From Verrucomicrobiota bacterium (GTDB lineage Bacteria > Verrucomicrobiota > Verrucomicrobiia > Limisphaerales > UBA11358), in NCBI GenBank assembly GCA_049522015.1, contig JBEKOG010000026.1, positions 3,548 to 67,547 on the forward strand: 64,000 bases of DNA, read 5' to 3'. Below the pieces are notes generated by a model that was not told the origin of the DNA, ran no database searches, and saw only the letters and a program-made list of their open reading frames with translations. Positions within the stretch are counted from its first letter, which is position 1, and the number at the start of each line of letters is the position of its first letter. The position numbers and the translations under genes are program-made. Below are positions 27,978 to 53,837 of this stretch, piece after piece.

Positions 27978-28009
27978 AAACAACAAAACAACACAAAGAG
28001 AAACATGGT

Positions 28010-28816: not shown

Positions 28817-28957
28817 GAGCGTGTTTAAAAGAGCGTCTATGCCGCACCGTTTTTCGTTGGGAGTTCCGCCTTTAGGCGGTTCCAACGCGTTGCCGCCTGA
28901 AGGCGGGACTCCAAACCCGGATGCTGAATCGGGCGGATTCACGGCGGCACTACTTCG

Positions 28958-36926: not shown

Positions 36927-37416
36927 AATGGTGGTGTGAATTCATTGAATCAAGGTGCGGGCATCGTATTTCAAAACGTGGCATGGGCAAATAAAAATGG
37001 TGTCCAGAGGCGCTGACTGTTGTCGCAGCGCCGGGACACGCAGGTGAAAACTGCCTCGTGATGAAACAACGAACACCCTTCGCGAGCGTCGGCGGGGTCG
37101 TCCGCAGCACCATTGCAATCCGGGAGGCGGAGCGATTGAAACTGTCGGCGGGTTCGAAGCGGAGGTGTGAGTTGATTGATTTATTCTGACTGTTTCCCAT
37201 AAGCCATGCCGCGTAAAAGGCGCTGCCTCACGCGGCAGGCTAAAGATGTTTTCAGCATTCAGCATTCAGCATTTCTCCTTCCTTCTGCAAGCAAGGTTGA
37301 CCTCGAAAGTGGGGAAGGCCATCCTGTCAACGTCGCGCCCACATAAAACGGGCGCCGTGCCAGACACGCGTAAAAGGCTTTCAGCCTCACGCGGCGGGCC
37401 AAGTAAAGCAAAGATT

Positions 37417-38958
37417 ATGTCGGACCCAAAACAGGAGCTGCTCTGGAATCTTCCCTCCGTCACCGAATTGCTGAAGAGCGAGACAGTCGCCGGCTGGCTC
37501 CGGCAACAGCCCCTGTCGCTGGTGACCGAGTGTTTGCGCCGCGCCGTCGAAAATTTGCGGCGGCAAATCCTCGATGATCGTGGGACAGGCTTCCAGCCTG
37601 TCTCTGACATCAAAACATCACCCCCTTCGCGCGTTGGCCCGAAGCAGGCGGGTTCATCACCGAACGGCGGGCTGCCGGAAAGAATACGGAGACAGGCTGG
37701 AAGCCTGTCCCACGAAGATTCCGGCGCTCTCGTGCAGGAATTCAACCGCATCGTATTGAGTCAGGCGGGCGAGTTGCTTCGTCAGGCCGTCGAGCCGCGC
37801 GTGCGCGAGGCCATCAACGCCACCGGCATCATTCTCCACACCGGCCTGGGGCGCGCGGTCTTTCCCGGCTGTGTCGTGGATTCGATGATTCCCGGATTGA
37901 AGGGTTACGTGAACCTGGCCGTGGATCGCGATTCCGGCGGGCGCGTTGAACGGGATGAACTGGTCGAACCCCTGTTCACCGAACTCACCGGCGCCGAAGC
38001 CGCCACGGTCGTCAACAACAATGCCGGCGCCACGCTGCTGGTCCTGGCCGCGCTCGCGGCGCGACGCGAAGTCGTCGTTTCGCGCGGCCAGCTCATTGAG
38101 ATCGGCGGTTCCTTCCGGCTGCCCGATGTGATGGCGCAAAGCCGGGCGCGGCTGGTCGAGGTGGGCACGACCAACCGGACGCACCTCAAGGATTATCGCA
38201 ACGCCATCACGGAGAAGACCGCCGCGCTCATGCGCGTGCATCCGAGCAACTACCGCGTCGTCGGTTTCACCAGCGAAGTGCCGCTCGCCGAACTCGCTGA
38301 ACTGGCGCACAGCAAGAATTTGCTTTTGATTGATGATCTCGGAGCGGGCGCGTTGCTGGATTTGCGCCAGTTCGGGCTGCCGCACGAAACGACCGTCCGC
38401 GAATCGATCGAGGCCGGGGCAGACGTGGTTTTGTTCAGCGCCGACAAGCTGATTGGCGCCAATCAGAGCGGAATCATTGTCGGGCGCAAGGAGGCGATTG
38501 CCAAAATCCGAAAGCATCCCCTGATGCGCGCCTTGCGCGTGGACAAGACCTGCATCATGGTTCTGGAACGCACGCTGCATTTGTTCCGCGACCCCGAGTT
38601 GCTCCGCCGCGAGCATCCGACCTATCGCATGATGACCACACCGCCCGACGCGCTCCAGCATCGCGCCGAGGCGTTGGCCCAAGCCATCCGGGAGAAAGCG
38701 CCGCGCGCGAAGGCGGACATTCACGCGAGCCAGGCTTATCTGGGCAGCGGTTCGTTGCCGGAGGAAGCGATTCCCAGCCTGGTCGTGAGCGTCAGCTTGC
38801 CCGGCATGAAAGCCACGGACCTGGCGCGGGCGCTGCGACTGGACCAGGCGTGTGTCTTTGGACGCATCGAACACGAGCGGGTTTTGTTGGATGTGCGGAC
38901 CATCACCGATGTGCAGGTGAAGGCGATTGCCGGGGCGCTGGGGAGAATCGCGGGATGA
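37417..38958 (+). CDS. selA: L-seryl-tRNA(Sec) selenium transferase
   Basis: The start was set at 37417 (MSDPKQELLWNLPSVTELL..). Motifs are 'INATGIILHTGLGRA', 'VNNNAGA', 'SRGQLIEIGGSFRLPDVM', 'VGTTNRTH' and the PLP lysine in 'FSADKLIG'. It contains an in-frame double hairpin (37582-37711). Confidence 0.9.
   Translation: MSDPKQELLWNLPSVTELLKSETVAGWLRQQPLSLVTECLRRAVENLRRQILDDRGTGFQPVSDIKTSPPSRVGPKQAGSSPNGGLPERIRRQAGSLSHEDSGALVQEFNRIVLSQAGELLRQAVEPRVREAINATGIILHTGLGRAVFPGCVVDSMIPGLKGYVNLAVDRDSGGRVERDELVEPLFTELTGAEAATVVNNNAGATLLVLAALAARREVVVSRGQLIEIGGSFRLPDVMAQSRARLVEVGTTNRTHLKDYRNAITEKTAALMRVHPSNYRVVGFTSEVPLAELAELAHSKNLLLIDDLGAGALLDLRQFGLPHETTVRESIEAGADVVLFSADKLIGANQSGIIVGRKEAIAKIRKHPLMRALRVDKTCIMVLERTLHLFRDPELLRREHPTYRMMTTPPDALQHRAEALAQAIREKAPRAKADIHASQAYLGSGSLPEEAIPSLVVSVSLPGMKATDLARALRLDQACVFGRIEHERVLLDVRTITDVQVKAIAGALGRIAG
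37582..37711. repeat. Pair of inverted GACAGGCT-TCC-AGCCTGTC hairpin repeats inside the selA coding sequence
   Basis: The left arm GGGACAGGCTTCCAGCCTGTCTC (37582-37604) and the right arm GGAGACAGGCTGGAAGCCTGTCCC (37688-37711) are reverse complements. They encode ..GTGFQPVS....RQAGSLSH.., a segment that from memory is absent from E. coli SelA. Confidence 0.65.
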
Positions 38959-38975
38959 AGATTCAATTTGAAACC

Positions 38976-39133
38976 GGGAGTGATGGGGTGATGGAGCGTT
39001 GGAGTGCTGCAAAGGCAAAGCAGGTCAACACCGAACATCCAACATCCAACATCCAACAACGAATGAAGGGCTGCGCCCGTCTGGTTTTGGCATTGGATGT
39101 TCGATGTTGGATGTTGGATGTTGGATGTTCCCA
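38976..39133. repeat. REP cluster in the selA-selB spacer
   Basis: GGAGTGATGG-type units come first. Then CCAACATCCAACATCCAACA ... TTGGATGTTCGATGTTGGATGTTGGATGTTGGATG forms a long inverted repeat. Confidence 0.7.
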
Positions 39134-39142
39134 CTTCTCCTC

Positions 39143-41098
39143 ATGACTTCCCGCCGTAACATCATGCTCGGCACCGCCGGGCACGTGGACCACGGCAAGA
39201 CCGCCCTGGTGAAGATGCTCACCGGCTGCGAGACCGACACGCTGGCCGAGGAAAAACAACGCGGCCTCACCATTGACCTCGGCTTTGCCCCCTGCCAGTT
39301 GTCGGACAAACGCGTGGTCGGCGTCGTGGACGTGCCGGGCCACGTGGATTTCATCCGCAACATGGCCGCCGGCGCGCACGGCATTGACGTCGTCATTTTT
39401 GTCGTCGCGGCGGACGACGGCATCATGCCGCAAACGCATGAGCATCTTCACATTCTCACGCTCATGGGACTGCGCCACGGACTGGTGGCGCTCACCAAGG
39501 TAGATCTCGTTGACCCGGCCCGGCGCAGCTTCGTGATTCAGGACCTGCGGCGGTTGCTCGCGAACACGTTTCTCGCAGAGGCGCCGATTTGTCCGCTCTC
39601 CAACGTCACCGGCGAAGGCTTCGACGGATTTTTCGACGCGTTGAACGAGGTGGTCGCCAAATGTGAAAACCGCCCCTGCTCCGGCTGGTTCCGCATGTGG
39701 GTGGAGGACGTGTTTACGATCCGCGGCTCCGGCACGGTGATCACCGGCATCCCCACCCGGGGACGCGTGCGACCGGGCGACAGTCTGCATCTGCTGCCCG
39801 CCGGTTTGTCCGGACACGTCCGCCGCATGCAGGTCTATGGCGAGGACGCAACGGAGGGACGGGCCGGGGAATGTGTCGCGCTGAACATACCCGAGATTGA
39901 TCATGAAGTGGTGCGGCGCGGCATGGTCTTGTGTGAATCAAATGCCGTGGCCCCGGTAACCATGGCCGAAGCCGAATTGCGAATCCTCGATTCCGTCAAG
40001 GGCAAAATCGCCGACTACCTCGAAGCGCAGTTGCATGTCGGAACGGCGGCGGTGTCAGCCCATTTGGCGATGCTTGAAAACACCGAAATGACCGGTGGCC
40101 AAAAGCAGATGATCCAGCTCCGGCTGGCGGAACCGCTGGCGCTGGCGCCCGGCGAACGATTTGTCGTCCGGGCCAACGTGGCCGGTTCCGGCGTCGCCGG
40201 TCTGACCACGATTGGCGGCGGACAGATTCTCGGCATCGGCAACGTCCGGCTGCGCCGGAAGAAACAGTGGACACTCGATATGCTCGCGGCCCGGCGGGAA
40301 GCCATCGCCGATTCTGCCCGCTGGTGTGAACTGATGTTGCGGGAAAGCGCGCTGCCGATGACCGCCGCCGACCTGCAATTAAAATGCCTGATGCGCACCG
40401 AGGAGATGACGGCAATGCTTGATTCCCTGCGCGCCGAAGATCGCGCGGTCCTGACGCCCGGCGGCGGGTGGCTGCACCGCGATGTCATCCAGAAAACCGC
40501 GACCGATATCCTCGCGGCCATCCAAGCCTTTCATTCCGCCAACCCGCAGCGGGCCGGAATCGGCCGGGATGAACTGCTTGCCACCCTCAAGGCCGACGGC
40601 AAGCTCCTGGATCTGGCCGTGGCGTCGCTGCTCGGGACGAAGCAGATTGAGCACAACGGAAACGTGCTGGCAGGGGCGGGCTGGAGCGCGCGGGTTGTGG
40701 ACCGCGACCAACGCCTGTGCGACCAGATTGCCGCGAAACTGCAGCAGGCCGGCTGGGCGCCGCCCGGCGCTGAGGAACTGGCCGCGGCGCTGGGCGAACC
40801 GTTGCCGCGCGTCAGCGCGATGATGCGACTGCTGGGCGAGCGCGGGATTTTTGTGCGGCTGGATGAGCGTGTCTGGATGCATCGCGACGCCGTGGAGGCC
40901 GGCAAACAAACCGCCTTGAAACTTTTCGCCCGCGCGCCGATGTTCTCCACCATGGACTTCCGCGACGCGCTCGGCGTCAGCCGCAAATATGCCGTGCCGC
41001 TGGTGGATTATTTGGACAAGGTCCGCTTTACCGTCCGTTCCGGAAACAACCGGACGCCGGGAGCGGAAGCAAAGAAGCTGCTCTTGCAGAAGACGTGA
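39143..41098 (+). CDS. selB: Selenocysteine-specific translation elongation factor
   Basis: The start was set at 39143 (MTSRRNIMLGTAGHVDHGKTAL..), with an alternative at 39164. The G motifs are AGHVDHGKT, DVPGH and TKVD. The long C-terminal winged-helix region ends '..SRKYAVPLVDYLDKVRFTVR', as in the SelB mRNA-binding domains. Confidence 0.9.
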   Translation: MTSRRNIMLGTAGHVDHGKTALVKMLTGCETDTLAEEKQRGLTIDLGFAPCQLSDKRVVGVVDVPGHVDFIRNMAAGAHGIDVVIFVVAADDGIMPQTHEHLHILTLMGLRHGLVALTKVDLVDPARRSFVIQDLRRLLANTFLAEAPICPLSNVTGEGFDGFFDALNEVVAKCENRPCSGWFRMWVEDVFTIRGSGTVITGIPTRGRVRPGDSLHLLPAGLSGHVRRMQVYGEDATEGRAGECVALNIPEIDHEVVRRGMVLCESNAVAPVTMAEAELRILDSVKGKIADYLEAQLHVGTAAVSAHLAMLENTEMTGGQKQMIQLRLAEPLALAPGERFVVRANVAGSGVAGLTTIGGGQILGIGNVRLRRKKQWTLDMLAARREAIADSARWCELMLRESALPMTAADLQLKCLMRTEEMTAMLDSLRAEDRAVLTPGGGWLHRDVIQKTATDILAAIQAFHSANPQRAGIGRDELLATLKADGKLLDLAVASLLGTKQIEHNGNVLAGAGWSARVVDRDQRLCDQIAAKLQQAGWAPPGAEELAAALGEPLPRVSAMMRLLGERGIFVRLDERVWMHRDAVEAGKQTALKLFARAPMFSTMDFRDALGVSRKYAVPLVDYLDKVRFTVRSGNNRTPGAEAKKLLLQKT

Positions 41099-41099
41099 A

Positions 41100-41590
41100 G
41101 AGATCTCTGCAAAACAGACGTGGCGGCTTTCGGCAGAAAGCCGTACGATTTATTTTCTGGAAGAATGCGGCGCTCTGCCGAGACGCCAAAATCTTAACCA
41201 CGGATGAACACGAATAGACCTAACGCGGCTTGCGCCGCAACCACGGATTTTGGACTGCGGCGGGAAGCGAAGCGCCACGCCGCTTTTGAACGCAACCGGC
41301 CGTACGGAAAGCGGTGTCGCCGCTGCGCTCTGCCACCGCAGTTCAAATCTTTGTCGTCCGTGCGCGAACCTGTGTCATTGTATTACGGATGGGTTGGAAG
41401 GGCGGAAATTTGGACTGCGCCGGCAAAGCGCAGCGACGACGGCGCTTTCGAATTCGGTTGGTGGTTCATCGGCCATCGCCCCTCCTTAAAGCGGCGTGGC
41501 GATTCACTTCCCGCCGCAGTCCAAAATCCTGGCCACGGGCTGTTCTTTTATCCGTGTCCATCCGTGTTCATCCGTGGTTGAATTATTGCT
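41100..41590. repeat. REP-dense intergenic region between selB and selD
   Basis: Several hairpin families are packed together. They include GGACTGCGGCGGGAAGCGAAGCGCCACGCCGCTTTTG, GGTGTCGCCGCTGCGCTCTGCCACCGCAGTTCAAATC and CCGTGTCCATCCGTGTTCATCCGTGG paired with CCACGGATGAACACGAATAGACC. The listed ORFs here are translations of the repeats. Confidence 0.6.
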
Positions 41591-41592
41591 GA

Positions 41593-43299
41593 ATGAAAAT
41601 TGATTTTGCCAGACGCCGGCGCGTGATGGAGCGGTCGCAATTGCTGGGGCACTGCATCTGCGACGTGCGGCGTCCCTGCCCGTGCGATGTTTTTCGTGAC
41701 GACGGGATTTGTCCGTGCGCCGGCGAGCGGCCCGACCCGGTGGACCTGTCACAGGTGAAACTGATGGAGCTGGTCCGCAACGCCGGTTGCGCGTCGAAGA
41801 TTGCCCCCGCCGAACTCGACGCAGTGCTGGGCCGGCTGCCCGCCGTAAATGATCCCGCCGTGATTTCCGGGCTGGCAGCGGGTGACGACGCGGCGATTTA
41901 CCGGATCTCCGACGACCTTTGCCTGGTGCAAACCGTGGACGTGTTCACGCCGTGTGTGGATGACCCGCATCTTTTCGGACGGATTTGCGCCGTGAACTGC
42001 CTTTCGGACATTTATGCGATGGGCGGCGAACCGCGCACCGCGTTGAGCATCCTGGCGTTTCCCACCGAGAAGTTACCGGGTGAGGTGATGTATCAAATGC
42101 TGGCCGGCGCGATGGATGTTTTTGAAGAGGCTGGCGTCGCGCTCGTCGGCGGGCACAGCGTCAAGGACGACGAAATCAAACTCGGCTTTGCCATCACCGG
42201 CCTGATCAATCCCAAAATTGCCGCCGCGCTGGAAAAACCGGGGGCCGGCGACGTGCTGGTGTTGACCAAGCCGCTGGGCACCGGCGTGCTGGCGTTCAGT
42301 CAGCAAATCGGGCGCGGGTATCCGGCCGGGCTGGCTGCCGCCGAAACTTCGATGGCCACGCTGAACAAGGCGGCGGCGGAGGCCATGAAGGAAGCCGGCG
42401 CCTCGGCCTGCACGGACGTGACGGGCTTCGGCCTGTTCGCGCATCTCCATCGCATGCTGCGCCAAAGCAAGCTGGGCGCGGAAATTTTCGCCGACGCGTT
42501 GCCGGCATTCGACGGCGCAGTTGAGGCCCTCCGGCAGGGCGTGATTCCGGGCGCAGTTGAACGAAACCGCGAATATGTCGGCGAGGCCATCCGCGTTGCG
42601 TCAAACGTGGACGAAGCGCTGGTCAACCTGGGTTTCGACGCGCAAACCTCCGGCGGCCTGCTGATTGCCGTTCCCCATGAACGGCTGGAGACTTTGCTTC
42701 AAGCCCTGGCCCGGCGTAGCGCCGGCAGTTTTGTCATTGGCAGAATCATTGGCACGTCTGATGAAAGAATCCTTGTAAATCGTGGCGCTCTTGAACCGAA
42801 CGTTCGGAGTTCCGCGTTTACGCGACCGCCTGAAGGCGGAACTCCAAACCCAAAAAGCAAATCCATGAAATCATCAACTTCAGATTCCACCGGCCAAGAA
42901 CCTTCCCTCACCCGCCCTTCCGCCTTCGCTGAAGCTACGGCGGACAAGCCGGGCACCCTCTCCCATCCGATGGGCGAGGGACACGGCTGCTGCGCGGACA
43001 TGTTCAAAGGCGAAGGCGCGGCAAGTTCCGTCGGCGAAACGCAAAAGGCTTTTGCCGCGATGATCCGCTCGGTGCAGGCCGCCGGCGTCTTGAGCGAAAA
43101 GGCCAAGGAACTGATCCTGTTCAGCCTGGTCGTGCACAGCCGGTGTCACCCGTGTTTCGACGCGCACTTTCGCAAGGCGCGCGAGATGGGCCTCACTCAG
43201 GCGGAATTGGACGAGGCGGCCTGGTGCGCCATCGCCATGGGTGGTGCGCCGGTAAAAATGTTTTATCAGGAGAGCCTCCGCCGGATTCAAAATGCGTAG
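41593..43299 (+). CDS. selD: Selenide, water dikinase (Cys form) with a Cys-rich N-terminal extension, fused to a C-terminal AhpD/CMD-like CxxC domain
   Basis: The SelD core carries 'NAGCASKIAP' (Cys at the Sec/Cys position), 'GDDAAIY', 'VQTVDVFTP', 'GGHSVKDDE' and 'VLTKPLGTG'. The N-terminal extension of about 55 aa reads HCICDVRRPCPCDVFRDDGICPC. After about residue 390 comes a repeat-encoded linker (..RPPEGGTPNPK.., ..LSHPMGEG..). Then '..LILFSLVVHSRCHPCFDAHFRKAREMGLTQAELDEAAWCAIAMGG' follows, an AhpD-like core. Confidence 0.85.
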   Translation: MKIDFARRRRVMERSQLLGHCICDVRRPCPCDVFRDDGICPCAGERPDPVDLSQVKLMELVRNAGCASKIAPAELDAVLGRLPAVNDPAVISGLAAGDDAAIYRISDDLCLVQTVDVFTPCVDDPHLFGRICAVNCLSDIYAMGGEPRTALSILAFPTEKLPGEVMYQMLAGAMDVFEEAGVALVGGHSVKDDEIKLGFAITGLINPKIAAALEKPGAGDVLVLTKPLGTGVLAFSQQIGRGYPAGLAAAETSMATLNKAAAEAMKEAGASACTDVTGFGLFAHLHRMLRQSKLGAEIFADALPAFDGAVEALRQGVIPGAVERNREYVGEAIRVASNVDEALVNLGFDAQTSGGLLIAVPHERLETLLQALARRSAGSFVIGRIIGTSDERILVNRGALEPNVRSSAFTRPPEGGTPNPKSKSMKSSTSDSTGQEPSLTRPSAFAEATADKPGTLSHPMGEGHGCCADMFKGEGAASSVGETQKAFAAMIRSVQAAGVLSEKAKELILFSLVVHSRCHPCFDAHFRKAREMGLTQAELDEAAWCAIAMGGAPVKMFYQESLRRIQNA

Positions 43300-43546: not shown

Positions 43547-45127
43547 ATGCCTGACAACGGCAACAACCGGTTTCTCCCAGGAACAACAAGACTTGCCTTG
43601 GTGCTGTTTGTCTGCGGGCTTGCCATCTTCTGTCTGGTTTTCCAAATCGGCAAGGGTCAAACCAGCAGCAACGGAACGTACAAACTGCGCGAAGTTTCGG
43701 TCTTCGAATCGGGCCAGAATAATTTTATTCGCGGGCAGATGTGTCGGTGCCAGGACAAACCCTTCCCGGAAGTGAAGAATTATCCCGCGTTCACCTCCGA
43801 GGTGCCGATTTTCGGTTCGGTCCGGTTCGGCGGGAGGCTGGACGAGACAAACTCCGGCTTGCTCTTTTATTTTGCCGTGGATGAAAGCCGCGGGACCGGC
43901 AAGGGCTTTGACCGCCTGTATTTCGACGCCAACCGGGACCTCGACCTGCGCAACGATCCGGTTGTCAAACTCCGGCAACCGCCGCCCGATCACGGCTATA
44001 AACCGAACTTCTCCGGCATCAAGGCGGTGGCGGCCTTCGATTTTTTGAAAGTCAACCTGGGCACCAACGGCGGCAGTTCCGACCTGGTGGAAATCATGCC
44101 GCGCCTGCTCCTCACGGGGGACGACAAACAAACCTACCGCTACCTGTTTTTCGTGCGCACCCGCCTTTTCGAAGGCGACATCCGGATGGCGGGCGAAAAA
44201 TTCCACGCCCAACTTGGGAATGATTATGTCATATCCCCCAGCTTTGATTTTCCCGGCACCGCCCTCGAGTTGAGCGGGAAGAAAACCTCCTTTAACTGGT
44301 GGGGCGGCGACCGGATATCGGCTATTCACAAAATGAACGGCCGCTTCTTCAGCTTTTCCGCCACCCAAGACGGCGAGTTGACCGTGCGTCCGTATTCTGG
44401 AGACCTGGGAACCTTTGAGATTGGACCGGGCACCCGGAAGCTGACCAACTTTGGCGTGTCGGGCTCGTTTGAAGCCCGGGATTGGGCCGTGCCGGTGGGC
44501 GGCGACATCAAAGACGGCCGGCCGGTCGAGGTCAGCCGTTGTCAGGTGCCGGTGGGCGACTACCTGCCGGAATTTCTCACGCTCCAATTCGGCCGGCTGC
44601 GAATTCAGCTTTCGCAAAACTACCATTCGGAAGGCAAACGCCAGAATCGTACCGGCCGCCCGGACGTTTACGGAATAACGATCCGCAAGGACCGGCCATA
44701 CGTGCTGGATTTCTCTAATCAGCCTGACGTGATGTTTACGTCACCGACCAACAGCCAGCGGGTCAAACCGGGCGACACCCTTATGGTGGCGGCCGTGCTG
44801 GTGGACCCGAAACTGGACATCATGATCCGCAGGCTGGATGACACATCGCACAAACAAACCAAGGATGCCGAGGGCAAGCCTCTGCATTATGAACAAAACC
44901 TGTCGCTTGACCCCAAAGTGATCATCATGCGGGCCAACGGCGAGAAAGTGGCTGAGGGCGTCATGCCCTTTGGCTGAGACGGCACGTGCGGGTACTCATG
45001 GCGGGTACCAAACGATCTCAAACTGGACGGCAAGGAAGAAACCTTCACCGTGCAGGTGCTTTACGACACGCTTGAGCTTTACGGAAAGGTCAGCGCCAAC
45101 CGGTCCGTTACTGTCTATCGCGAATAA
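43547..45127 (+). CDS. Secreted selenoprotein candidate, paralog C (TGA at 44975-44977 read as Sec)
   Basis: The listed ORF 43547-44977 has an N-terminal TM/signal anchor and ends ..GVMPFG-TGA. The frame continues DGTCGYSWRVPNDLKLDGKEETFTVQVLYDTLELYGKVSANRSVTVYRE to a TAA at 45125-45127. It lies directly downstream of selD on the same strand. Confidence 0.7.
44975..45008 (+). promoter_or_regulatory. Putative SECIS element, paralog C
   Basis: The RNA reads UGA-N14-GUACUC-AUGGC-GGGUAC, with one U-G wobble pair. Confidence 0.65.
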
Positions 45128-45146: not shown

Positions 45147-46037
45147 TCATGCCGGGTTTTCCGGTGCCTGCTGTGAATCCTTTTTCGGCAGGGCAAAGCA
45201 CGGCTCGATTGCGCCGCAGGTGGTGCATTCGAGACAGCGGATGCAGCCGGACACGTTGACGGCCTGATCCACTTTCACGCCCATCGAACAACGGCTGCGG
45301 CAGAGGTTGCATTCCACACATTCCTTGGGATTGAACCGGAGATGAAACAGGCTGAACCGGTTGAAGAGTGAGAGAAAGCCGCCCAGCGGACAAAAGATGC
45401 GGCACCACGGGCGATGAATGAACAAAGCGGCGGCGATGAACGACAGGAGTATCCCCGTTTTGAACCAGCTCATGACCCAACCTTTGCCGGCCAAAACACT
45501 TTGGACCGAATAAGGCACGCCGGCTTCGAGCGCGCCGGCCGGACAAAGGCGGCAGATGGAAACGGCCTGACGCTCGAACGGAATGCCCTTGAAGCCGAGA
45601 ACCATCGGCAGCAGCAGGACCAATCCCACCAGCACGACGTATCGCGTGTAGCCCACCCAGCCCGGCAAAGAAATTTTCCGGGGGGAAATTTTACCCAGCA
45701 AATCCTGCAGGAAACCGAACGGGCACGCCCAGCCGCATACGAGTGAGCCGCTCACCGCACCGACGAGCAGGAGCAAACCCATCAATAAATACGGGACTTC
45801 CCCGACCACCGGCAGCAGCGCGGCGTAATTTGCCGCCACGCCCACCGGACAGGCGAACGCGGACAACGGGCAGGAGTAGCAGTGGAACACACATCCGGGA
45901 ATGCCGTGCAGCCAACGGCCCACCGGCGCGAGCCAGATGCCAAGAAAGCCCGTCTGCAACCAGGGACGAAGGCGCGACAGCTTCCGGCCGAGGGCAGTCG
46001 GTTCACGTTGCTGGCAATTGGGTACAGGACATTCCAT
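45147..46037 (-). CDS. Membrane-bound 4Fe-4S polyferredoxin (NapH/MauN-like)
   Basis: It has multiple TM segments with CPxG motifs (CYSCPLSAFACPVG, CGWACPFG, CRLCPAG, CRIFCPLG). The C-terminal ferredoxin motifs are CVECNLCRSRC and CIRCLECTTC. Confidence 0.75.
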   Translation of the reverse strand: MECPVPNCQQREPTALGRKLSRLRPWLQTGFLGIWLAPVGRWLHGIPGCVFHCYSCPLSAFACPVGVAANYAALLPVVGEVPYLLMGLLLLVGAVSGSLVCGWACPFGFLQDLLGKISPRKISLPGWVGYTRYVVLVGLVLLLPMVLGFKGIPFERQAVSICRLCPAGALEAGVPYSVQSVLAGKGWVMSWFKTGILLSFIAAALFIHRPWCRIFCPLGGFLSLFNRFSLFHLRFNPKECVECNLCRSRCSMGVKVDQAVNVSGCIRCLECTTCGAIEPCFALPKKDSQQAPENPA

Positions 46038-46554: not shown

Positions 46555-46651
46555 TGGCGGAGGCGGATGGGAATCGAACCCACCTGGGACTTTGTTGAGC
46601 CCCACACTGGTTTTGAAGACCAGGAGCGCCACCAGGTCGCCTTACACCTCC
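46555..46651 (-). tRNA. selC: tRNA-Sec (anticodon UCA)
   Basis: The reverse complement reads GGAGGTGTAAGGCGACCTGGTGGCGCTCCTGGTCTTCAAAACCAGTGTGGGGCTCAACAAAGTCCCAGGTGGGTTCGATTCCCATCCGCCTCCGCCA. It is 97 nt long, with the anticodon loop CT-TCA-AA, a long variable arm (GGGGCT..AGTCCC), the T-loop GGTTCGATTCC, an extended acceptor stem, discriminator G and CCA. Confidence 0.9.
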
Positions 46652-47014: not shown

Positions 47015-50000
47015 TCACTGCGGCAATTTCTTGATCTGCACATCCAGTTCGTCGAGCGAAAAACCTTCCGCGATTACACGATGATTGGCGTCGGTGAGGA
47101 TCAACCACGGCAATGCGGGAACGGCCGAGGCCCATTTTGATTTTTCGGATTTCTCCGTCACCCGCCCGACCGGGAATAATACCGGACTGGCGGTTTTCCA
47201 TTCATTGAAAGTTTCATCGCTGGTGACTGCGGCTTGAACACCCAGCACCATAACGCCTTTCTGCCGGAGTGCGGCGGCCTGTTCATTCAACTGGTGGACC
47301 ACATGCCGCGACGGGCGCTGGCTCGCGTCGAACAGGCACACCAACACCGGCTTGCCGGCGGGCGCGGTGTCGCTGGCGAGATTCACCGTTACCAAATCGG
47401 GCAGCGGACTGCCTTTGAGCGAGGCGCGATGCGGTGTCTGGGGCATATTCCCCGGCTGGGAATTCAAGGTCATCACGACGTTGGTGTCGCCCGCTTCGAC
47501 CGTAGCCTGCGCGTTGCCACCGCCGTTTTGCGAATAGGCAAACAGGCGGATTTGTCCCTCGCAAATCTGGAAATGAAAACGACCCTGACTGTCGGTGGTC
47601 ATGTAACCCTCCGGCTGGTCTTCGCCGCTTAATTGCACGTTCGCGCCGGACGCCGGTTTGTCGTCATCTTTCAACACCTTTCCGGCGATGACGCGGTCGG
47701 CGAGCTTGAGGACGAACGGTGACAGTTCCATGCGATTTGTTTCGGAGTCGTTTTGGATTTGCTGCTGGCTTCGACCGTGGCCTTTGGCGGTGGCGAAAAC
47801 AGTGTATTGCGCGTCCGGCGGCAGGCATTTGATTTCGTAGCGGCCTTGCTCATCGGCGGCAGCCATTTGTTCATTCAATTGTTCGTAGCTGTTGCCCGCC
47901 CTGAGCCACACGCCGACCTGCGCGCCGGCGAGGGGAGACCCGTCAACGAATTTTACCAGCCCGGCCAGGGTCAGGGCCGGTTTCAATTTCACGTCGAGGT
48001 TCGTGGTTTCCTCCGGCAACTCTTCGGTGGCTCCCAAGTTGCGAACCGGGTCACGGACAACCAGCAGTGCGCCGCCCGACTGCATTTGCCACGGCTGGAG
48101 CGACCAGGTGAGGCTGAACGCGCCGTTGGTTGCGGTCTTTGTCCAGCGCCGCGAACCGTTGGACGGAAATACCGCCACCTGCGCGCCGTCGGCGGGTTTG
48201 CCATCGGCATCCGTCACCATGCCTTTGAGTTTGTGCGCCGCGGAACCGGGGGAGCTGTTGTAAGTTTGACCGAGCCGCAGAACGACATTCGTGTCGCCGC
48301 CTTCGGCTGAAATGTTGCCGAAGGAACGCTGGCTGTTGGCGGAGATTTGAGCCGGGCCTTCGCAGACATGCTCGAAGCGGAATCGTCCCTCGCGATCCGT
48401 CCGCACATTGCCGCCGGGCTGTCCGTCACCGTTAAGATTCACGTAGGTGCCCGCGACCGGCTTGTCGTCGGCGTCGAGCACCTGGCCGGCGAGTTTGAGA
48501 TTCGCTGGCTTGAGTTCCATGGGATCAAGTTCCTGACGGATGGCATCGGCGGAGATGTCGAGATTTTGCATCTGCCGCTGCCCGTAACCCGGCGCGGAGA
48601 CGATGACGCCATATTTTCTGCCGGGCGGCAGCGCGGGAATTTCATACTGTCCCGGCGTGTTGGTGCGGGCCAGACCTTGAAGCCACGAACCGCTGCGGCC
48701 GGTCCAGAAAACGAGCGAGGCGGTCGCGTTGGTGACCGGTTTGCCGTCGGATTCCGCCCGGCCGGCCAGCGTCAGTCCCGGCGCGAGTTTCAAATCGAGC
48801 GGGCCGGTGTCTTCGTCAATGTCCTGCGCCACGGCCAGATTGTGTTCCACGTCCCGAACCAGAATGCAGGCGGTTGTGTCGTTTTGTCCGAATCGGCGCT
48901 GGTTCCATTCCAACTCAAATTTTCCGCCGGCATCGGTCTTGACTTCGGCGTCCCCGGGACCAAAACCACCCACAATTCTCACCGGCAGTCCCGCCGCCGG
49001 CTGGCCGTCCGGCTGGCGGATAATGCCGGTGATTTTCTGCGGCGCGGCGATTTCAATCTCCACTCGGTTCGTCTTGCCGGCTTCCACGCTGGCGGAAGTC
49101 TGGTTGGCAGGCATGGATTCACGGGACGCCATCACCTGATAATCACCGGGCGGCAGCCTCAGGAGGGCGACGCCGTTGCTATCGGAACGGGCGGCGGATT
49201 GAAAGTTTTCCCGGTAAGCATTAACCATGACTTGCGCCAGCAGTTTGTGGTCGTTCTTTCCGAGCACGGCCACTTCCAGCAAACCGCCGCGCGCCGCAGC
49301 CACCTGCACGCCGCGCGTGGTTTGTCCGGATTCAACCGAAACTGGAATCGCGTCCGCGACCCATTCCGGAACAGCGTTGGTGCCGAAGACGGCCTGAATA
49401 CGGTAGGAACCTGCGGGCACGTCGCTGATGCGGAACGCGCCGTCCACGCCGGATTGCGCCGGCTCGCGTTCGCCAAACGCGAAAAAACCCGGGTTGTCTG
49501 GCTGCAACATCAACCGCGCGACGGGCGGCGGTTGATTGCTTTCCGCAACGATGATTTTACCTTCGACGCTGCCGGCGGATTCCACGACCAATTTGATGTC
49601 GTCCTGGCCCGCGCGCCAGGGCAGCGAATCGAAACCGGCAAATTCCTGCGATGATGGGCGCAGAGCTTTTCCCGGCGCCTGAACCGCAAGTGCGGCGGTG
49701 GCATTGGTCGGAAAATTTTCGATGCGGAAACGGCCGGCGGCGTCCGTCCGAGCGGCAAAACAATCGTGCGCGGGTTTGCCAAGGAAATAATTAAGACTCC
49801 GCTCTCCGCCTTCCCGCGAAATTTCGCAGAAGGCCGTGGCCACGGAAACCTCGGCGTTGGCGACAGGTTTGTCCGCTTCGTCCACCACCATGCCCGCCAG
49901 CACCGCCGGCGGAGTCAGCACCAGACGTTCTTCCCCGTCACGGACGGAATTAAACGGCTGGCCCAACTGTTTCCATGCCGGGGCCAGTCCCGGCTTTTTC

Positions 50001-50326
50001 GCCAGCAGAAATCCCATCGCCCGCGGCACTTGAAATTCAAAAGTGCCGTTGGTGCCCGTGGTGATTTGTTTTTTCAGTTCCAGATGATCCGTCAGGAACA
50101 GCCTTCCCTCGTAGCGCCAATACTCCACCGTCGCGCCGGCAAGGGGGCTGCCGGCGGTGTCGGTGATCGTCCCGGAACAGTTGAGTTCTTGCGCGCCGGC
50201 ATTGGTGCCGGTGTCCGGCGCTCTTTGAATAATGGCCTGCAGCCGTTGCTGCGTTTGGGCGAGCACGCCAAAGCTCGCAAACACAGAAACGGCAGAAACC
50301 AGAAGGAATTGCCGTGTCATTTTCAT
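47015..50326 (-). CDS. Secreted protein with multiple carboxypeptidase-regulatory-like domains and a C-terminal thioredoxin-fold (TlpA-like, no CxxC) domain
   Basis: The 1103-aa ORF has a signal peptide. It carries about 10 repeats of the 'G.V.D..GKP..GA.V' type. The C-terminus 'GKPVLVCLFDASQRPSRHVVHQLNEQAAALRQKGVMVLGVQ...PWLILTDANHRVIAEG' looks like a redoxin fold in which the CxxC is replaced. It lies 12 nt downstream of paralog D. Confidence 0.65.
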   Translation of the reverse strand: MKMTRQFLLVSAVSVFASFGVLAQTQQRLQAIIQRAPDTGTNAGAQELNCSGTITDTAGSPLAGATVEYWRYEGRLFLTDHLELKKQITTGTNGTFEFQVPRAMGFLLAKKPGLAPAWKQLGQPFNSVRDGEERLVLTPPAVLAGMVVDEADKPVANAEVSVATAFCEISREGGERSLNYFLGKPAHDCFAARTDAAGRFRIENFPTNATAALAVQAPGKALRPSSQEFAGFDSLPWRAGQDDIKLVVESAGSVEGKIIVAESNQPPPVARLMLQPDNPGFFAFGEREPAQSGVDGAFRISDVPAGSYRIQAVFGTNAVPEWVADAIPVSVESGQTTRGVQVAAARGGLLEVAVLGKNDHKLLAQVMVNAYRENFQSAARSDSNGVALLRLPPGDYQVMASRESMPANQTSASVEAGKTNRVEIEIAAPQKITGIIRQPDGQPAAGLPVRIVGGFGPGDAEVKTDAGGKFELEWNQRRFGQNDTTACILVRDVEHNLAVAQDIDEDTGPLDLKLAPGLTLAGRAESDGKPVTNATASLVFWTGRSGSWLQGLARTNTPGQYEIPALPPGRKYGVIVSAPGYGQRQMQNLDISADAIRQELDPMELKPANLKLAGQVLDADDKPVAGTYVNLNGDGQPGGNVRTDREGRFRFEHVCEGPAQISANSQRSFGNISAEGGDTNVVLRLGQTYNSSPGSAAHKLKGMVTDADGKPADGAQVAVFPSNGSRRWTKTATNGAFSLTWSLQPWQMQSGGALLVVRDPVRNLGATEELPEETTNLDVKLKPALTLAGLVKFVDGSPLAGAQVGVWLRAGNSYEQLNEQMAAADEQGRYEIKCLPPDAQYTVFATAKGHGRSQQQIQNDSETNRMELSPFVLKLADRVIAGKVLKDDDKPASGANVQLSGEDQPEGYMTTDSQGRFHFQICEGQIRLFAYSQNGGGNAQATVEAGDTNVVMTLNSQPGNMPQTPHRASLKGSPLPDLVTVNLASDTAPAGKPVLVCLFDASQRPSRHVVHQLNEQAAALRQKGVMVLGVQAAVTSDETFNEWKTASPVLFPVGRVTEKSEKSKWASAVPALPWLILTDANHRVIAEGFSLDELDVQIKKLPQ

Positions 50327-50337
50327 GGGATGTTTAA

Positions 50338-51615
50338 TTATTTTTTTGCTTCAAGCGTCAACGGACTCGTCAGCACCTGGAACGGGCTGAAAATTTTGAT
50401 GTTGCCAACCAACGGACGCTGAACATTTTTGGGCTCCCGCCATGAGAGCGAACAAACGCCGCCTCACCCAAACTCGAACGTGTTCGTATAACACAACGTC
50501 CCGTCGGCATTGGCCAGCATCAATTTCGGCCCGCGCGGGCGCTGCCCGTCACGCAGCATCTCGATGGATTCCTTCTGTTGCCCCACGAAACTGAGGTTGA
50601 AGGCGACCTGGCGGTTGGGGTTCTCGGTCGCCTTGAGCACGGCTTGCACCGGCTCGCCGATTTCCAGCACGGCAGTTTTGTCGGCAGCGACCTCGAACCC
50701 GGCGGTTTTGGGGAAATTATAGCCGGACAGCGTCCACGCCGCGCCTTTTTCATCCTTGCGATTGATCGTCCAGCGAAAGATCCGGTAATTGCCCGCCGGC
50801 AGGGTGAATTCGCCGTTCACCGGCTGGCGCACGAAATGGCCGTTCCCGCCGAACGCGGCGAATTCGGAAATGTTTTCCGGCACGCGCACCTGGCCGAGCG
50901 TGATCCCGCCGGGCGGGACCTTTTGCACCTTGACGAACGCGCCGTCGCGGGCGGCTTCGATCCGGAAAAGCTTTCCGTCCACTTCCAGCATTTTGCCCAA
51001 AAAACGTTCGCCGGTCTTGTCGCCCTCGACCTGGACGCGGTCGCTGTCATAAGGATCCGGTGCGACGTCGTTAAACGTGCCGTTGACGTTGCCGTCAATC
51101 AGTTGGATGCGTTTTTTCACGCCGTCGAAATTCACCACGCCTTCATACCAGCCGGCGGACGATGCCAGCAATTGCGCGGGACTCTTTTCGTATTGATAGA
51201 ACCGGAACACGAGATGATAGGTGATCGGCCCGTCCTCGCCCTTGAAAACAACGGGGGCCGGCGGAAAAAAGGCGAAGTAGGAATCCAGTCGCGCCTGGAT
51301 GGGCGTTTTGTCGTCCAGCCGGCCATTGCCGTTGCTGTCAATGTACAGCCGGTCATACGGCCCGGACTTGCGTGTGCGGTCGAAGCAGAGCCAGCGGCCG
51401 CCGGCGGGGTCCATCGGCGTGGACCAGCGCGCGAAATAGGGCGGCGCGTTCAGCTTGGGCAGGGCGACGCCGGGTGGCGGATTGGTGGTCAGTTCCATCT
51501 GGTGGTAGGCGCGGCCCTCGGCGCTGGTATGGTATTCCAGCCACTGCTCGGTTTGCGCGAACGCGGTGCCGGCGAGAACCATTCCGGCCAGAATCAATTT
51601 TCTGGAAAGTTTCAT
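50338..51615 (-). CDS. Secreted selenoprotein candidate, paralog D (TGA at 50464-50466 read as Sec)
   Basis: The listed ORF 50464-51615 has the signal peptide MKLSRKLILAGMVLAGTAFA and ends ..NTFEFG-TGA. The frame continues GGVCSLSWREPKNVQRPLVGNIKIFSPFQVLTSPLTLEAKK to a TAA at 50338-50340. Confidence 0.7.
50433..50466 (-). promoter_or_regulatory. Putative SECIS element, paralog D
   Basis: The RNA reads UGA-N14-GCUCUC-AUGGC-GGGAGC. Confidence 0.65.
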
Positions 51616-51646
51616 GATGTTAAGGTTGGCTTTTTGTTCATCAAGT

Positions 51647-53749: not shown

Positions 53750-53837
53750 GGTTATCCAGTTTGTCGCCGTGATTGGCATTACAGCGGGTCGTGGCCTGTC
53801 AAGCAAGCAGATTCCTTCGCGCAAAAACGCGGCGCGT

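What the first reader, a model, noticed from the sequence alone, without database searches (positions are those of the whole stretch)
44975..45008. A hairpin 14 nt downstream of each UGA shows compensatory base changes among the five paralogs (SECIS-like)
The RNA after each UGA forms a 6-bp stem with an invariant 5-nt loop AUGGC.

- A: GCACUC/GAGUGC
- B: GUACUC/GAGUAC
- C: GUACUC/GGGUAC
- D: GCUCUC/GGGAGC
- E: GCACUC/GAGUGC

Stem position 2 covaries as C-G versus U-A. Position 3 covaries as A-U versus U-A. Position 5 is U-A or U-G. At the protein level these changes appear as coupled substitutions, S(H/Y/L)SWR(V/E). The sequence is therefore constrained as RNA as well as protein. The spacing (loop about 21-25 nt after the UGA) and the GG in the apical loop fit the general bacterial SECIS model known from E. 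coli fdhF/fdnG. The other copies are at 32759-32792, 35086-35119, 50433-50466 and 52483-52516 (minus strand).
Basis: seen in the sequence. Interest (0 to 1): 0.85.

Follow-up and report, generated by a model that had tools for sequence, protein, structure and literature searches.

The report
SECIS hairpins in new selenoprotein family
The five small RNA hairpins are almost certainly the signals that make the ribosome insert selenocysteine at a UGA "stop" codon in five related exported proteins, which belong to a very large family that public databases cut short at that codon and that no selenoprotein catalogue I could check lists.

Summary
Five paralogous genes (23-31% protein identity) each carry one in-frame TGA. 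Fourteen nt later comes a 6-bp stem with an AUGGC loop.

The SECIS reading is strongly supported:
- selA, selB, selD and tRNA-Sec lie between the five genes.
- TGA is an ordinary stop elsewhere in the window.
- The reading frame stays conserved after each TGA, and AlphaFold models that part confidently.
- A motif scan that left the stem bases free found 123 distinct sites in Planctomycetota, Verrucomicrobiota and other phyla. All have TGA.
- The helix pairs in 99.3% of cells, and four of six pairs show compensatory changes.
- Synonymous codon positions inside the stem are fixed, whereas the base just outside it is free.

The element occurs only at these five sites in the window, so it is not a REP.

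The host family has at least 3,596 clusters at 50% identity. It has no Pfam or NCBIfam model and is not among the 119 families in a 2026 review. I found no established cysteine form. Database entries for it end at the UGA.

The mechanism is canonical, so this is a new member of a known kind. No experiment has tested it, and the protein's function is unknown.

The parts
32759..32792 (-). Sec-UGA (32790-32792), 14-nt spacer and SECIS hairpin GCACUC-AUGGC-GAGUGC of paralog A
   Evidence: 68.9 bits
35086..35119 (-). Sec-UGA (35117-35119) and SECIS hairpin GUACUC-AUGGC-GAGUAC of paralog B
   Evidence: 59.1 bits
44975..45008 (+). Sec-UGA (44975-44977) and SECIS hairpin GUACUC-AUGGC-GGGUAC of paralog C (the stem can extend to 7 bp)
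   Evidence: 64.7 bits
50433..50466 (-). Sec-UGA (50464-50466) and SECIS hairpin GCUCUC-AUGGC-GGGAGC of paralog D
   Evidence: 59.1 bits
52483..52516 (-). Sec-UGA (52514-52516) and SECIS hairpin GCACUC-AUGGC-GAGUGC of paralog E
   Evidence: 64.5 bits
32664..34199 (-). Paralog A selenoprotein gene read through the UGA (511 aa, Sec470, N-terminal signal peptide)
   Evidence: (AF2 pLDDT 89.5; residues 471-511 form confident strands)
34196..36517 (-). Paralog B gene read through the UGA (773 aa, Sec467). It has an exported beta domain, then about 6-7 transmembrane segments after the Sec motif. Its stop overlaps the start of A (ATGA).
   Evidence: public annotation splits it into 457 + 260 aa
43547..45127 (+). 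Paralog C gene read through the UGA (526 aa, Sec477), directly downstream of selD on the same strand
50338..51615 (-). Paralog D gene read through the UGA (425 aa, Sec384), the 'SLSWREP' type
51647..53824 (-). Paralog E gene read through the UGA (Sec at residue 437 of the 725-aa reading). It has a multi-TM C-terminal extension like B. The start is uncertain: TTG at 53824 or ATG at 53779.
37246..38958 (+). selA, L-seryl-tRNA(Sec) selenium transferase
   Evidence: PF03841, 9e-135; TIGR00474, 511.8 bits, cutoff 267.9
38999..41098 (+). selB, Sec-specific elongation factor with C-terminal winged-helix (SECIS-binding) domains
   Evidence: GTP_EFTU, SelB-wing_2, SelB-wing_3; TIGR00475, 326 bits, cutoff 242
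41593..43299 (+). selD (Cys-type, NAGCASK) fused to a C-terminal AhpD/CMD-like domain
   Evidence: (TIGR00476, 338 bits)
46555..46651 (-). selC, tRNA-Sec (anticodon UCA)
   Evidence: ARAGORN; RF01852, 71.4 bits, gathering score 47
45147..46037 (-). NapH/MauN-like membrane ferredoxin-type protein (Fer4_5). It is a recurrent neighbour of the family. Its membership of the system is inferred.
   Evidence: found in 11 other loci
47015..50326 (-). 1103-aa protein with 8 CarboxypepD_reg repeats, immediately downstream of paralog D. It follows D-type genes in other genomes. Its membership of the system is inferred.
54616..56766 (+). DsbD-type thiol:disulfide electron transporter next to paralog E. It is a possible reductant supply. 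The link is weak: it was seen only in the closest relative, L022.

Best explanation
Each hairpin is a bacterial selenocysteine insertion sequence (SECIS) embedded in the coding region.

**Proposed mechanism (inferred).** When the ribosome has the UGA in its A site, the 17-nt stem-loop starting 14 nt downstream sits at the mRNA entrance. There it is bound by the C-terminal winged-helix domains of the SelB encoded 4-15 kb away. SelB·GTP delivers Sec-tRNA(Sec), made by the neighbouring selC, selA and selD products. The UGA is then read as selenocysteine instead of stop.

**Products.** The result is full-length, exported, all-beta proteins with a U-G-G-x-C motif in a turn of the last domain. In B and E a multi-pass membrane domain follows.

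**Dual constraint.** Because the RNA signal overlaps codons (S/G)-(H/Y/L)-S-W-R-(V/E)-P, the same bases are selected as RNA and as protein.

**Shown versus inferred.** Shown here:
- the sequence anatomy;
- the Sec machinery in cis;
- conservation across the UGA;
- covariation and synonymous-site constraint;
- exclusivity of the element to these sites.

Inferred:
- SelB binding;
- actual Sec incorporation;
- a redox (selenenylsulfide) role for U-x3-C.
For: 1. **Anatomy.** It is exact in all five copies.
2. **Sec machinery.** tRNA-Sec and selA, selB and selD, all above NCBIfam cut-offs, lie between the paralogs. Paralog C follows selD on the same strand. Across other genomes, SelA is within 8 kb of a family member in 19 loci, SelB in 18 and SelD-AhpD in 7.
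3. **No global reassignment.** TGA terminates selA, selB, DsbD and others. None of 16 control genes has an in-frame TGA, and Trp is TGG.
4. **Coding continues past the UGA.**
   - The motif GGxC(S/G)xSWRxP and the downstream strands are conserved in 124 sites.
   - AF2 gives pLDDT 89.5 and pTM 0.85, with residues 471-511 as confident strands of the last sandwich.
5. **UGA is universal.**
   - In a scan allowing TGA, TGC or TGT, every family-like hit was TGA.
   - 116 of the 120 top homologues and 139 of 146 representatives end in FG or YG, at the residue just before the Sec codon.
6. **RNA-level selection.**
   - 99.3% of cells are paired (0 of 500 shuffles reached this). There are 65 compensatory cells across 4 of 6 pairs, and slid registers give 21-68%.
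   - RNAalifold recovers the helix.
   - Pair 2 is UA 65, CG 35, UG 23, with no mismatch.
   - Pair 5 is UA 106, UG 11, AU 6. The AU cases combine Thr ACN with Arg CGU or Ser AGU.
7. **Synonymous sites against the same genes' codon usage.**
   - Arg CGA/CGG: 115 of 121, against 38% background.
   - Val GUA/GUG: 99 of 99, against 44%.
   - Ser(+5) UCG: 46 of 46, against 25%.
   - Gly(+5) GGG: 31 of 33, against 19%.
   - Leu CUC: 19 of 19, against 22%.
   - The Pro third base just outside the stem is free (C44, A42, G20, U17).
8. **Geometry fits the published bSECIS model** (PMC13188914, Fig. 2): loop 5 nt, stem 6 bp, 20 nt from UGA to loop.
9. **Not a repeat family.** Only these five sites occur in the window.
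Against: - No experiment exists. SelB binding and Sec insertion are inferred.
- Single-sequence folding is not better than shuffles (z-scores -1.6 to +0.2).
- The hairpin alone is only -6.1 to -9.1 kcal/mol in the window. Only 14 of 123 MFE folds of the 40 nt from the UGA contain it, because a competing UGAG/CUCR helix is favoured.
- The window's AUGGC loop lacks a G in the first two loop positions, which the bSECISearch consensus requires.
- No Rfam family matches, even at E <= 10.
- Sampling bias: my homologue set was collected with a motif that fixed UGG, the G and two C's on the 3' side, and the reading frame.
- The sequences are related, so shuffle counts and Fisher p-values overstate independence.
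- The classical control cannot be done. It asks whether the hairpin decays in Cys homologues, and no diverged Cys lineage exists.
Confidence: 0.9

Rival explanations
1. The apparent hairpin is a by-product of protein constraints alone. Residues at positions +6 and +10 would co-vary because they contact each other in the folded protein, and the RNA structure would have no function.
For: - The stem lies entirely in a highly conserved peptide motif.
- The changes H/V -> L/E and R/A are non-synonymous on both sides.
- Thermodynamic stability is unremarkable.
Against: - The constraint also acts on silent sites. The third base of codon +5 is G in 120 of 123 sites, whatever the amino acid (S, G, R, A, T, E, Q, K, L, P).
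- Val uses only GUA or GUG, and with His (CAC) always GUG.
- Arg uses CGA or CGG with Ser (UCN), and switches to CGU with Thr (ACN).
- Tyr UAU appears only with Ile AUA.
- All of these differ strongly from the same genes' codon usage.
- The synonymous base just outside the stem is free.
Confidence: 0.03
2. The TGA is a real stop. The downstream sequence would be a separate small ORF or gene (the membrane domain in B and E). The hairpin would serve another role, such as mRNA stability, translational coupling or attenuation.
For: - All public annotations call the genes this way.
- Gene callers do find ORFs starting just after the UGA (P0271).
Against: - The post-UGA peptide is conserved in the same frame without a conserved start codon or RBS in 124 sites.
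- It begins with invariant G-G-x-C directly after the UGA.
- AF2 builds it into the last domain with high confidence.
- The Sec machinery is co-located in many genomes.
- No T-run follows the hairpin.
Confidence: 0.03
3. The UGA is read through, but not as selenocysteine. Candidate routes are hairpin-stimulated near-cognate read-through (Trp, Cys or Arg) or a lineage-specific UGA reassignment.
For: - UGA-to-Trp reassignment has been reported in some Verrucomicrobiota (abstract of PMC13462651).
- Downstream structures can stimulate read-through in general (my own background knowledge).
Against: - TGA is the commonest genuine stop in the window. No control gene contains an in-frame TGA.
- The recoded residue sits four residues before an invariant Cys. 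This spacing suits a chalcogen redox or metal pair.
- The rare variants carry Cys (TGC), Ser (TCA) or Gly (GGA), never Trp (TGG), at that position.
Confidence: 0.03
4. The hairpin is a generic repetitive extragenic palindrome or mobile repeat that happens to lie in these genes.
For: There are five near-identical copies in 20 kb.
Against: - The exact core and the covariance model hit only the five in-frame sites in 64 kb.
- All copies are in the same codon register, 14 nt after a UGA.
- The element is found in the same register in more than 100 genomes of several phyla.
Confidence: 0.01

Closest known systems
E. coli fdhF / fdnG SECIS elements and the bSECISearch consensus model (as summarised in PMC13188914, section 5 and Fig. 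2)
   Same: - It is a stem-loop inside the coding region immediately 3' of the Sec-UGA.
- It has a small apical loop with G's and a 6-bp upper stem.
- The UGA-to-loop distance of 20 nt is within the 16-37 nt range.
- It presumably acts through the SelB winged-helix domains encoded nearby.
- From memory (Liu et al. 1998, NAR 26:896, not read here): the minimal E. coli element is also a 17-nt upper stem-loop, placed about 11 nt from the UGA.
   Different: - There is no sequence similarity and no bulged U.
- No conserved lower stem including the UGA was detected.
- The loop is RUGGC. In the window (AUGGC) the G's are at loop positions 3-4 rather than 1-2.
- The element is nearly invariant across several phyla. 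[quoted passage not shown]
Multi-selenoprotein operons: the SAO system and the Tso operon (Haft & Gwadz 2023; Haft & Tolstoy 2025, as summarised in PMC13188914, section 9)
   Same: - Several selenoprotein genes are clustered in one neighbourhood.
- The genes are truncated at the UGA in databases.
- DsbD-like and AhpD-like partners are nearby. The window's DsbD gives a partial hit to the TsoB model, and the SelD AhpD domain hits AhpD-selenoprotein models weakly.
   Different: - Here the clustered selenoproteins are paralogs of one family, not unrelated families.
- None of them hits any NCBIfam selenoprotein model.
- They are large, exported beta-sandwich proteins.
- The cluster contains the Sec machinery itself.
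TsoA 'LULAxC' selenoprotein (NF045695) and other U/C redox-motif selenoproteins (UxxC, CxxU)
   Same: A Sec residue lies close to a conserved Cys. U-x-x-x-C has the same spacing as L-U-L-A-x-C. This suggests a selenenylsulfide or metal-binding pair.
   Different: - There is no sequence match to NF045695 or to any other model.
- The motif sits in a turn of an Ig-like sandwich, not in a thioredoxin-like fold.
Glycine reductase selenoprotein A (GrdA), recalled from memory as a selenoprotein without natural Cys homologues
   Same: Sec appears obligatory. No established Cys-containing lineage was found.
   Different: It is an unrelated protein. GrdA is a small cytoplasmic CxxU protein of known function.

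Membership tests
Bacterial SECIS element (bSECIS consensus, PMC13188914 Fig. 2) | Located in the coding region immediately downstream of an in-frame UGA | tested here: met
   The hairpin starts 14 nt after the TGA in all five copies and in 123 homologous sites.
Bacterial SECIS element (bSECIS consensus, PMC13188914 Fig. 2) | Apical loop of 3-9 nt on an upper stem of 4-16 bp | tested here: met
   The loop is 5 nt and the stem 6 bp (7 bp in copy C). The helix is supported by covariation at 4 of 6 pairs.
Bacterial SECIS element (bSECIS consensus, PMC13188914 Fig. 2) | At least one G in the first two loop positions, usually followed by G or U | tested here: inconclusive
   The window copies have AUGGC, with G at positions 3 and 4, so the rule is not strictly met. 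Among homologues, 93 of 123 have GUGG(C/A), which meets it, and 30 of 123 have AUGG(C/A). Loop nucleotide 1 is always a purine, even though it is a synonymous site.
Bacterial SECIS element (bSECIS consensus, PMC13188914 Fig. 2) | 16-37 nt between the UGA and the apical loop | tested here: met
   14-nt spacer plus 6-nt arm gives 20 nt.
Bacterial SECIS element (bSECIS consensus, PMC13188914 Fig. 2) | MFE <= -7.5 kcal/mol | tested here: inconclusive
   The hairpin alone is -9.1, -7.1, -6.1, -8.4 and -9.1 kcal/mol in the window, with a family mean of -7.4. 40-nt segments from the UGA reach <= -7.5 in 99% of cases, but usually through a competing fold.
Bacterial SECIS element (bSECIS consensus, PMC13188914 Fig. 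2) | Complete Sec-decoding machinery present in the organism (selA, selB, selC, selD) | tested here: met
   All four are within 32.6-46.7 kb of the window.
Bacterial SECIS element (bSECIS consensus, PMC13188914 Fig. 2) | Binds SelB and is required for Sec insertion at the UGA | not testable with these tools
   This needs binding assays, reporters or 75Se/MS. Only the presence of the SelB winged-helix domains is shown.
Rfam curated RNA families (including its SECIS models) | Match to a family covariance model | tested here: not met
   Only the two tRNA genes reach gathering score in the window. At E <= 10, sites A and C give only chance-level hits to unrelated families.
Known prokaryotic selenoprotein families (119 in PMC13188914 Table 1; NCBIfam selenoprotein models) | Sequence match of the host protein to a described family model | tested here: not met
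   All five read-through proteins (with U replaced by C) have no NCBIfam hit at E <= 0.01 and no Pfam hit at E <= 0.1. No family in the review table has the FG-U-GG-x-C motif. A PDB sequence-profile search gave 0 hits.
Selenoprotein (generic criteria used in the field) | The in-frame UGA is conserved among homologues, with conserved flanks on both sides | tested here: met
   124 sites have TGA with conserved flanks. Database homologues end at the residue just before the UGA.
Selenoprotein (generic criteria used in the field) | Cys-containing homologues align Cys with the UGA | tested here: not met
   - Only one TGC variant was found, on a 532-nt contig and with an intact hairpin.
- A scan of 241 million metagenome records for the Cys form gave only chance hits.
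- This criterion is a discovery heuristic rather than a requirement. Its failure explains why Cys/Sec-pair methods would miss the family (PMC12013277).
REP / repetitive palindromic element | Many copies, mostly intergenic, independent of reading frame | tested here: not met
   There are only five copies, all in the same codon register after a UGA.

The most novel reading that the evidence does not exclude
The hairpin is the family-specific SECIS of a previously uncatalogued and very large selenoprotein family, with at least 3,596 clusters at 50% identity.

On this reading:
- The family consists of exported, multi-domain beta-sandwich proteins with a U-G-G-x-C site.
- Selenocysteine is effectively obligatory, since no Cys lineage exists.
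- Four or five ancient paralog types form operons physically linked to selA, selB, selC and selD across Planctomycetota, Verrucomicrobiota, Sumerlaeota and others.
- The family may therefore be the main reason these lineages keep the Sec trait.
- The near-invariant S-W-R peptide may be imposed by the RNA loop (UGG-C) rather than by protein function.
Probability: 0.6. Interest if true: 0.8.

Novelty: new member of a known kind. Interest (0 to 1): 0.66.

Why it matters
**For annotation.** Thousands of database proteins in abundant soil, sediment and water bacteria are truncated at this UGA. The membrane-anchored forms are split into two genes. A simple motif or covariance model would repair them.

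**For selenium biology.** According to a 2026 review, nearly all selenoproteins have more abundant Cys homologues, and most discovery pipelines depend on that. A large family with essentially no Cys form, exported from the cell and expanded to five copies around the Sec machinery, is an exception. It bears directly on the open question of why Sec is retained.

**For RNA biology.** The element is a clean natural example of one sequence selected both as RNA and as protein. It offers a ready-made set of natural compensatory variants for testing SelB recognition.

Tried and rejected
- **Single-sequence folding.** It was not informative: z-scores were not significant, and the MFE fold often chose a competing helix.
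- **Competing helix UGAG/CUCR.** It is 98% pairable, but only through invariant bases. 65 of 500 shuffles do as well, and the six U-to-A changes break it. I rejected it as the conserved structure and kept it as an open question.
- **A conserved lower stem including the UGA.** RNAalifold found none.
- **The search for related loci with the N-terminal alignment.** I used a degenerate DNA pattern instead.
- **Structure prediction.**
  - A single-sequence model with X at the Sec position was useless (pLDDT 32.7).
  - The MSA-based model worked.
- **Fold and sequence searches against PDB.** They returned only generic tandem Ig-like matches with TM < 0.3, so they give no functional lead.
- **Hunt for Cys homologues.** The aim was to test whether the hairpin decays without Sec. 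I found one recent TGC variant, two pseudogene-like variants (TCA, GGA) that still have intact hairpins, and only chance hits in metagenomes. The test cannot be done.
- **Rfam.** No family matched.
- **Literature.** No paper links this family, or these orders, to a selenoprotein. Haft & Tolstoy 2025 and Liu et al. 1998 could not be read.
- **Scan of the window for other UGA-interrupted long ORFs.** It found no further candidates.
Full report
**1. Observation**

I read all five sites and translated the surrounding ORFs through the first stop.

| Copy | TGA position | Strand |
|---|---|---|
| A | 32790-32792 | - |
| B | 35117-35119 | - |
| C | 44975-44977 | + |
| D | 50464-50466 | - |
| E | 52514-52516 | - |

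- The frame continues without interruption for 41-306 further codons.
- The peptide across the TGA is F/P-F-G-*-(G/D)-G-x-C-(S/G)-(H/Y/L)-S-W-R-(V/E)-P.
- The paralogs are only 23-31% identical as proteins, and this block is their best-conserved stretch.
- The 34-nt RNA elements are 68-91% identical.

**2. Is it more than chance, and is it a generic repeat?**

- The exact core CTCRTGGCGRG occurs only at the five sites in 64 kb.
- A covariance model built from homologues scores only these five, at 59-69 bits with filters off.
- Single-sequence thermodynamics do not help. Z-scores are -1.6 to +0.2, and the MFE fold contains the hairpin in only two of the five copies.

**3. Context**

ARAGORN and Rfam find a tRNA-Sec gene at 46555-46651 (-), scoring 71.4 bits against a gathering score of 47. 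Pfam and NCBIfam identify three further genes, all above curated cut-offs:
- selA at 37246-38958;
- selB at 38999-41098, with its winged-helix domains;
- selD at 41593-43299, fused to an AhpD-like domain.

The island is laid out as follows:
- B then A on the minus strand, with an ATGA stop/start overlap.
- selA, selB, a 125-aa ORF, selD and C on the plus strand.
- E, D, a 1103-aa CarboxypepD_reg-repeat protein, tRNA-Sec and a NapH-like ferredoxin-type membrane protein on the minus strand.
- DsbD follows on the plus strand.

TGA is the usual genuine stop here (selA, selB, DsbD and others). Sixteen control genes have no in-frame TGA, and Trp is TGG. Genome-wide reassignment of UGA is therefore excluded.

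**4. Relatives**

*Protein searches*
- The five proteins have no Pfam hit (E <= 0.1) and no NCBIfam hit (E <= 0.01).
- A word-indexed search returned 291 homologues. Of the 120 listed, 116 end in (M/L/F)E(F/Y)G, the residues just before the UGA.
- An exhaustive profile search of 1.84 billion cluster representatives gave 3,596 clusters at E <= 1e-3 (1,935 at 1e-10; 463 at 1e-30). Of the 146 new top hits, 139 end in FG or YG.

*DNA sampling without presupposing the hairpin*
- I scanned one genome per GTDB species with a degenerate motif. It allowed TGA, TGC or TGT at the Sec position and left the 5' arm and most of the 3' arm as N.
- After filtering for open frames and the family motif, 124 sites remained, 123 of them distinct. 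This count includes the window's own five, one of which is identical to a database site.
- All 124 have TGA. Every TGC or TGT hit was a broken frame or an unrelated low-complexity sequence.
- Carriers are MAGs of:
  - Planctomycetota (Phycisphaerae and Sedimentisphaerales, Pirellulales, Planctomycetaceae, Brocadiaceae);
  - Verrucomicrobiota (including Limisphaerales and Kiritimatiellia);
  - Sumerlaeota/BRC1, Hydrogenedentota and Riflebacteria.

*Neighbours*
- Within the 8-kb loci, tblastn finds SelA in 19, SelB in 18, SelD-AhpD in 7, the NapH-like protein in 11 and the CarboxypepD_reg protein in 11.
- The CarboxypepD_reg protein is nearly always next to the 'SLSWREP' (D-type) paralog.

**5. 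RNA-level selection**

On the 123 distinct sites:
- The proposed helix is paired in 99.3% of cells. Shuffles give 90.3 +/- 0.6%, and 0 of 500 reach the observed value. Slid registers give 21-68%.
- Four of six pairs show double changes, with 65 compensatory cells.
- RNAalifold independently predicts the same helix.

| Pair | Types observed |
|---|---|
| 2 | UA 65, CG 35, UG 23 |
| 3 | AU 99, UA 17, GC 2, GU 2, UG 2, one mismatch |
| 4 | CG 119, UA 3, one mismatch |
| 5 | UA 106, UG 11, AU 6 |

The same switch recurs in different paralog types, so several events are independent:
- H/GUG versus Y/GUA occurs within both the A-type and the B/E-type.
- UCN/CGA to ACN/CGU occurs in the C-type and in another type.
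- UAC/GUA to UAU/AUA occurs in two types.

What excludes a purely protein-level explanation is the behaviour of silent positions:
- The third base of codon +5 is G in 120 of 123 sites, although the amino acid there varies (S, G, R, A, T, E, Q, K, L, P) and neighbouring third positions prefer C.
- The third base of the Pro codon just outside the stem is free (C44, A42, G20, U17).

Codon choice at the site, compared with the roughly 34,700 upstream codons of the same genes:

| Codon choice | At the site | Background | Fisher p |
|---|---|---|---|
| Arg CGA/CGG | 115 of 121 | 38% | 2e-39 |
| Val GUA/GUG | 99 of 99 | 44% | 1e-34 |
| Ser(+5) UCG | 46 of 46 | 25% | 9e-28 |
| Gly(+5) GGG | 31 of 33 | 19% | 4e-20 |
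| Leu CUC | 19 of 19 | 22% | 5e-13 |
| Ser(+7) UCA/UCG | 117 of 117 | 34% | 1e-53 |

These p-values overstate independence because the sequences are related. The direction and size of the effect are nevertheless unambiguous.

**6. The post-UGA segment is part of the protein**

- With an MSA of 147 sequences and X at the Sec position, AlphaFold2 models paralog A at pLDDT 89.5 and pTM 0.85, as an all-beta, multi-domain protein.
- Sec470 lies in the turn between strands 460-465 and 473-479.
- Residues 471-511 form confident strands of the last sandwich.
- A and C have clear N-terminal hydrophobic signal or anchor segments. D has a recognisable but weaker one.
- B and E add about 6-7 transmembrane segments after the Sec motif.
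- Foldseek against PDB returns only generic tandem Ig-like or macroglobulin-like matches (TM < 0.3). A PDB sequence-profile search returns nothing.
- The biochemical function therefore remains unknown. An extracytoplasmic redox or metal-binding role for U-x3-C, supplied by DsbD or the NapH-like protein, is an inference from context only.

**7. Cys homologues**

- A profile of the C-terminal region with Cys at the Sec position found five proteins among 5.8 billion:
  - one real TGC variant, on a 532-nt contig, with the hairpin still perfect;
  - one TCA fragment;
  - one GGA variant with an upstream in-frame TAG;
  - two fragments.
- A scan of 241 million metagenome records for the Cys form of the motif gave nine hits, all chance.
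- The family thus lacks an established Cys lineage. The review PMC13188914 states that nearly all selenoproteins have more abundant Cys homologues. PMC12013277 notes that methods relying on such homologues may miss families that lack them.
- As a consequence, the classical control (hairpin decay in Cys forms) cannot be run.

**8. Comparison with what is known**

The published bSECIS consensus (PMC13188914, Fig. 2) requires five things:

| Criterion | This element |
|---|---|
| Loop of 3-9 nt | 5 nt, met |
| Stem of 4-16 bp | 6 bp, met |
| 16-37 nt from UGA to loop | 20 nt, met |
| G in the first two loop positions | Met by 93 of 123 homologues (GUGGC/GUGGA); not by the window's AUGGC |
| MFE <= -7.5 kcal/mol | Borderline for the hairpin alone (-6.1 to -9.1 in the window; family mean -7.4) |

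- Loop nucleotide 1 is mostly A in Verrucomicrobiota and mostly G in Planctomycetota.
- No Rfam family matches.
- The host protein is not among the 119 families or subfamilies tabulated in the 2026 review. It matches none of the NCBIfam selenoprotein models (release of June 2026).
- Five literature searches found no description of it.
- I could not read Haft & Tolstoy 2025. Its families are in the review table with NF accessions, and none matched.

**9. Verdict**

- The hairpins are functional bacterial SECIS elements with high probability (0.9).
- Mechanistically this is the canonical SelB pathway, so the element is a new member of a known kind.
- The added value lies in the host. It is a very large, consistently mis-annotated and apparently uncatalogued family of exported selenoproteins without Cys counterparts. 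It is expanded to five paralogs around the Sec machinery, and its SECIS is conserved across phyla.

Unresolved points:
- the family's function;
- the meaning of the A/G difference at loop position 1;
- whether the thermodynamically favoured competing helix UGAG/CUCR plays any role (it has no covariation support);
- whether the invariant S-W-R is dictated by the RNA.

Noticed in passing
window 41593-43299 (+): SelD is a fusion protein. It has a Cys-rich N-terminal extension (CICD..PCPCD..CPC), a Cys-type active site (NAGCASK) and a C-terminal AhpD/CMD-like domain. That domain gives weak hits to AhpD-domain selenoprotein models (NF041537, NF041047). The same fusion sits next to family members in 6-7 other loci.
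   Followed up: partly
window 34196-35041 and 51647-52486 (-): Gene callers report these as separate ~260-280-aa membrane proteins. They are in fact the in-frame C-terminal multi-TM extensions of paralogs B and E after the Sec codon. The exact public contig annotates B as 457 aa plus 260 aa. Similar extensions occur in 16 other loci.
   Followed up: partly
window 47015-53824 (-); L004, L022, L028, L083, L108, L111: There is a conserved gene order: B/E-type (membrane-anchored), then D-type ('SLSWREP'), then a large CarboxypepD_reg-repeat protein. It recurs in Verrucomicrobiota and Planctomycetota. This suggests that the paralog types are ancient and work together.
   Followed up: partly
window 45147-46037 (-): A NapH/MauN-like polytopic ferredoxin-type protein (Fer4_5) is a recurrent neighbour of the family (11 loci). 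It is a candidate electron donor, but this was not tested.
   Followed up: no
window 32759-32792 and the other four sites; alignment A3 columns 7-10 and 27-30: UGAG (the stop codon plus one base) can pair with CUCR (the 5' arm plus loop nucleotide 1). MFE folding prefers this helix over the covarying hairpin in 109 of 123 sites. It rests on invariant bases and has no covariation support. It might, however, explain why loop nucleotide 1, a silent site, is always a purine.
   Followed up: partly
L121 (168-530), L122 (587-859), L123 (2158-2322): Three rare variants were found at the Sec codon: TGC (Cys), TCA (Ser, in a gene fragment) and GGA (Gly, with an upstream in-frame TAG). All three keep a perfect hairpin. 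They look like recent mutations, pseudogenes or sequencing errors rather than Cys lineages.
   Followed up: yes
window 34196-34199: The stop of paralog B and the start of paralog A overlap as ATGA, which suggests translational coupling.
   Followed up: no
window 41204-41581 (+): A 125-aa ORF lies between selB and selD. It has no Pfam or NCBIfam hit and no tblastn match in the 120 related loci.
   Followed up: partly
window 8303-11584 (-) and 27902-29440 (-): Two long ORFs (1093 aa and 512 aa) have no Pfam or NCBIfam family. The first lies next to a Sel1-repeat protein (6579-8306).
   Followed up: no
window 25326-26627 and 29686-32096 (+): Two HGD-D (2-hydroxyacyl-CoA dehydratase-type) genes and a BcrAD/BadFG activator ATPase lie just upstream of the selenoprotein island. 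This hints at an anaerobic lifestyle.
   Followed up: no
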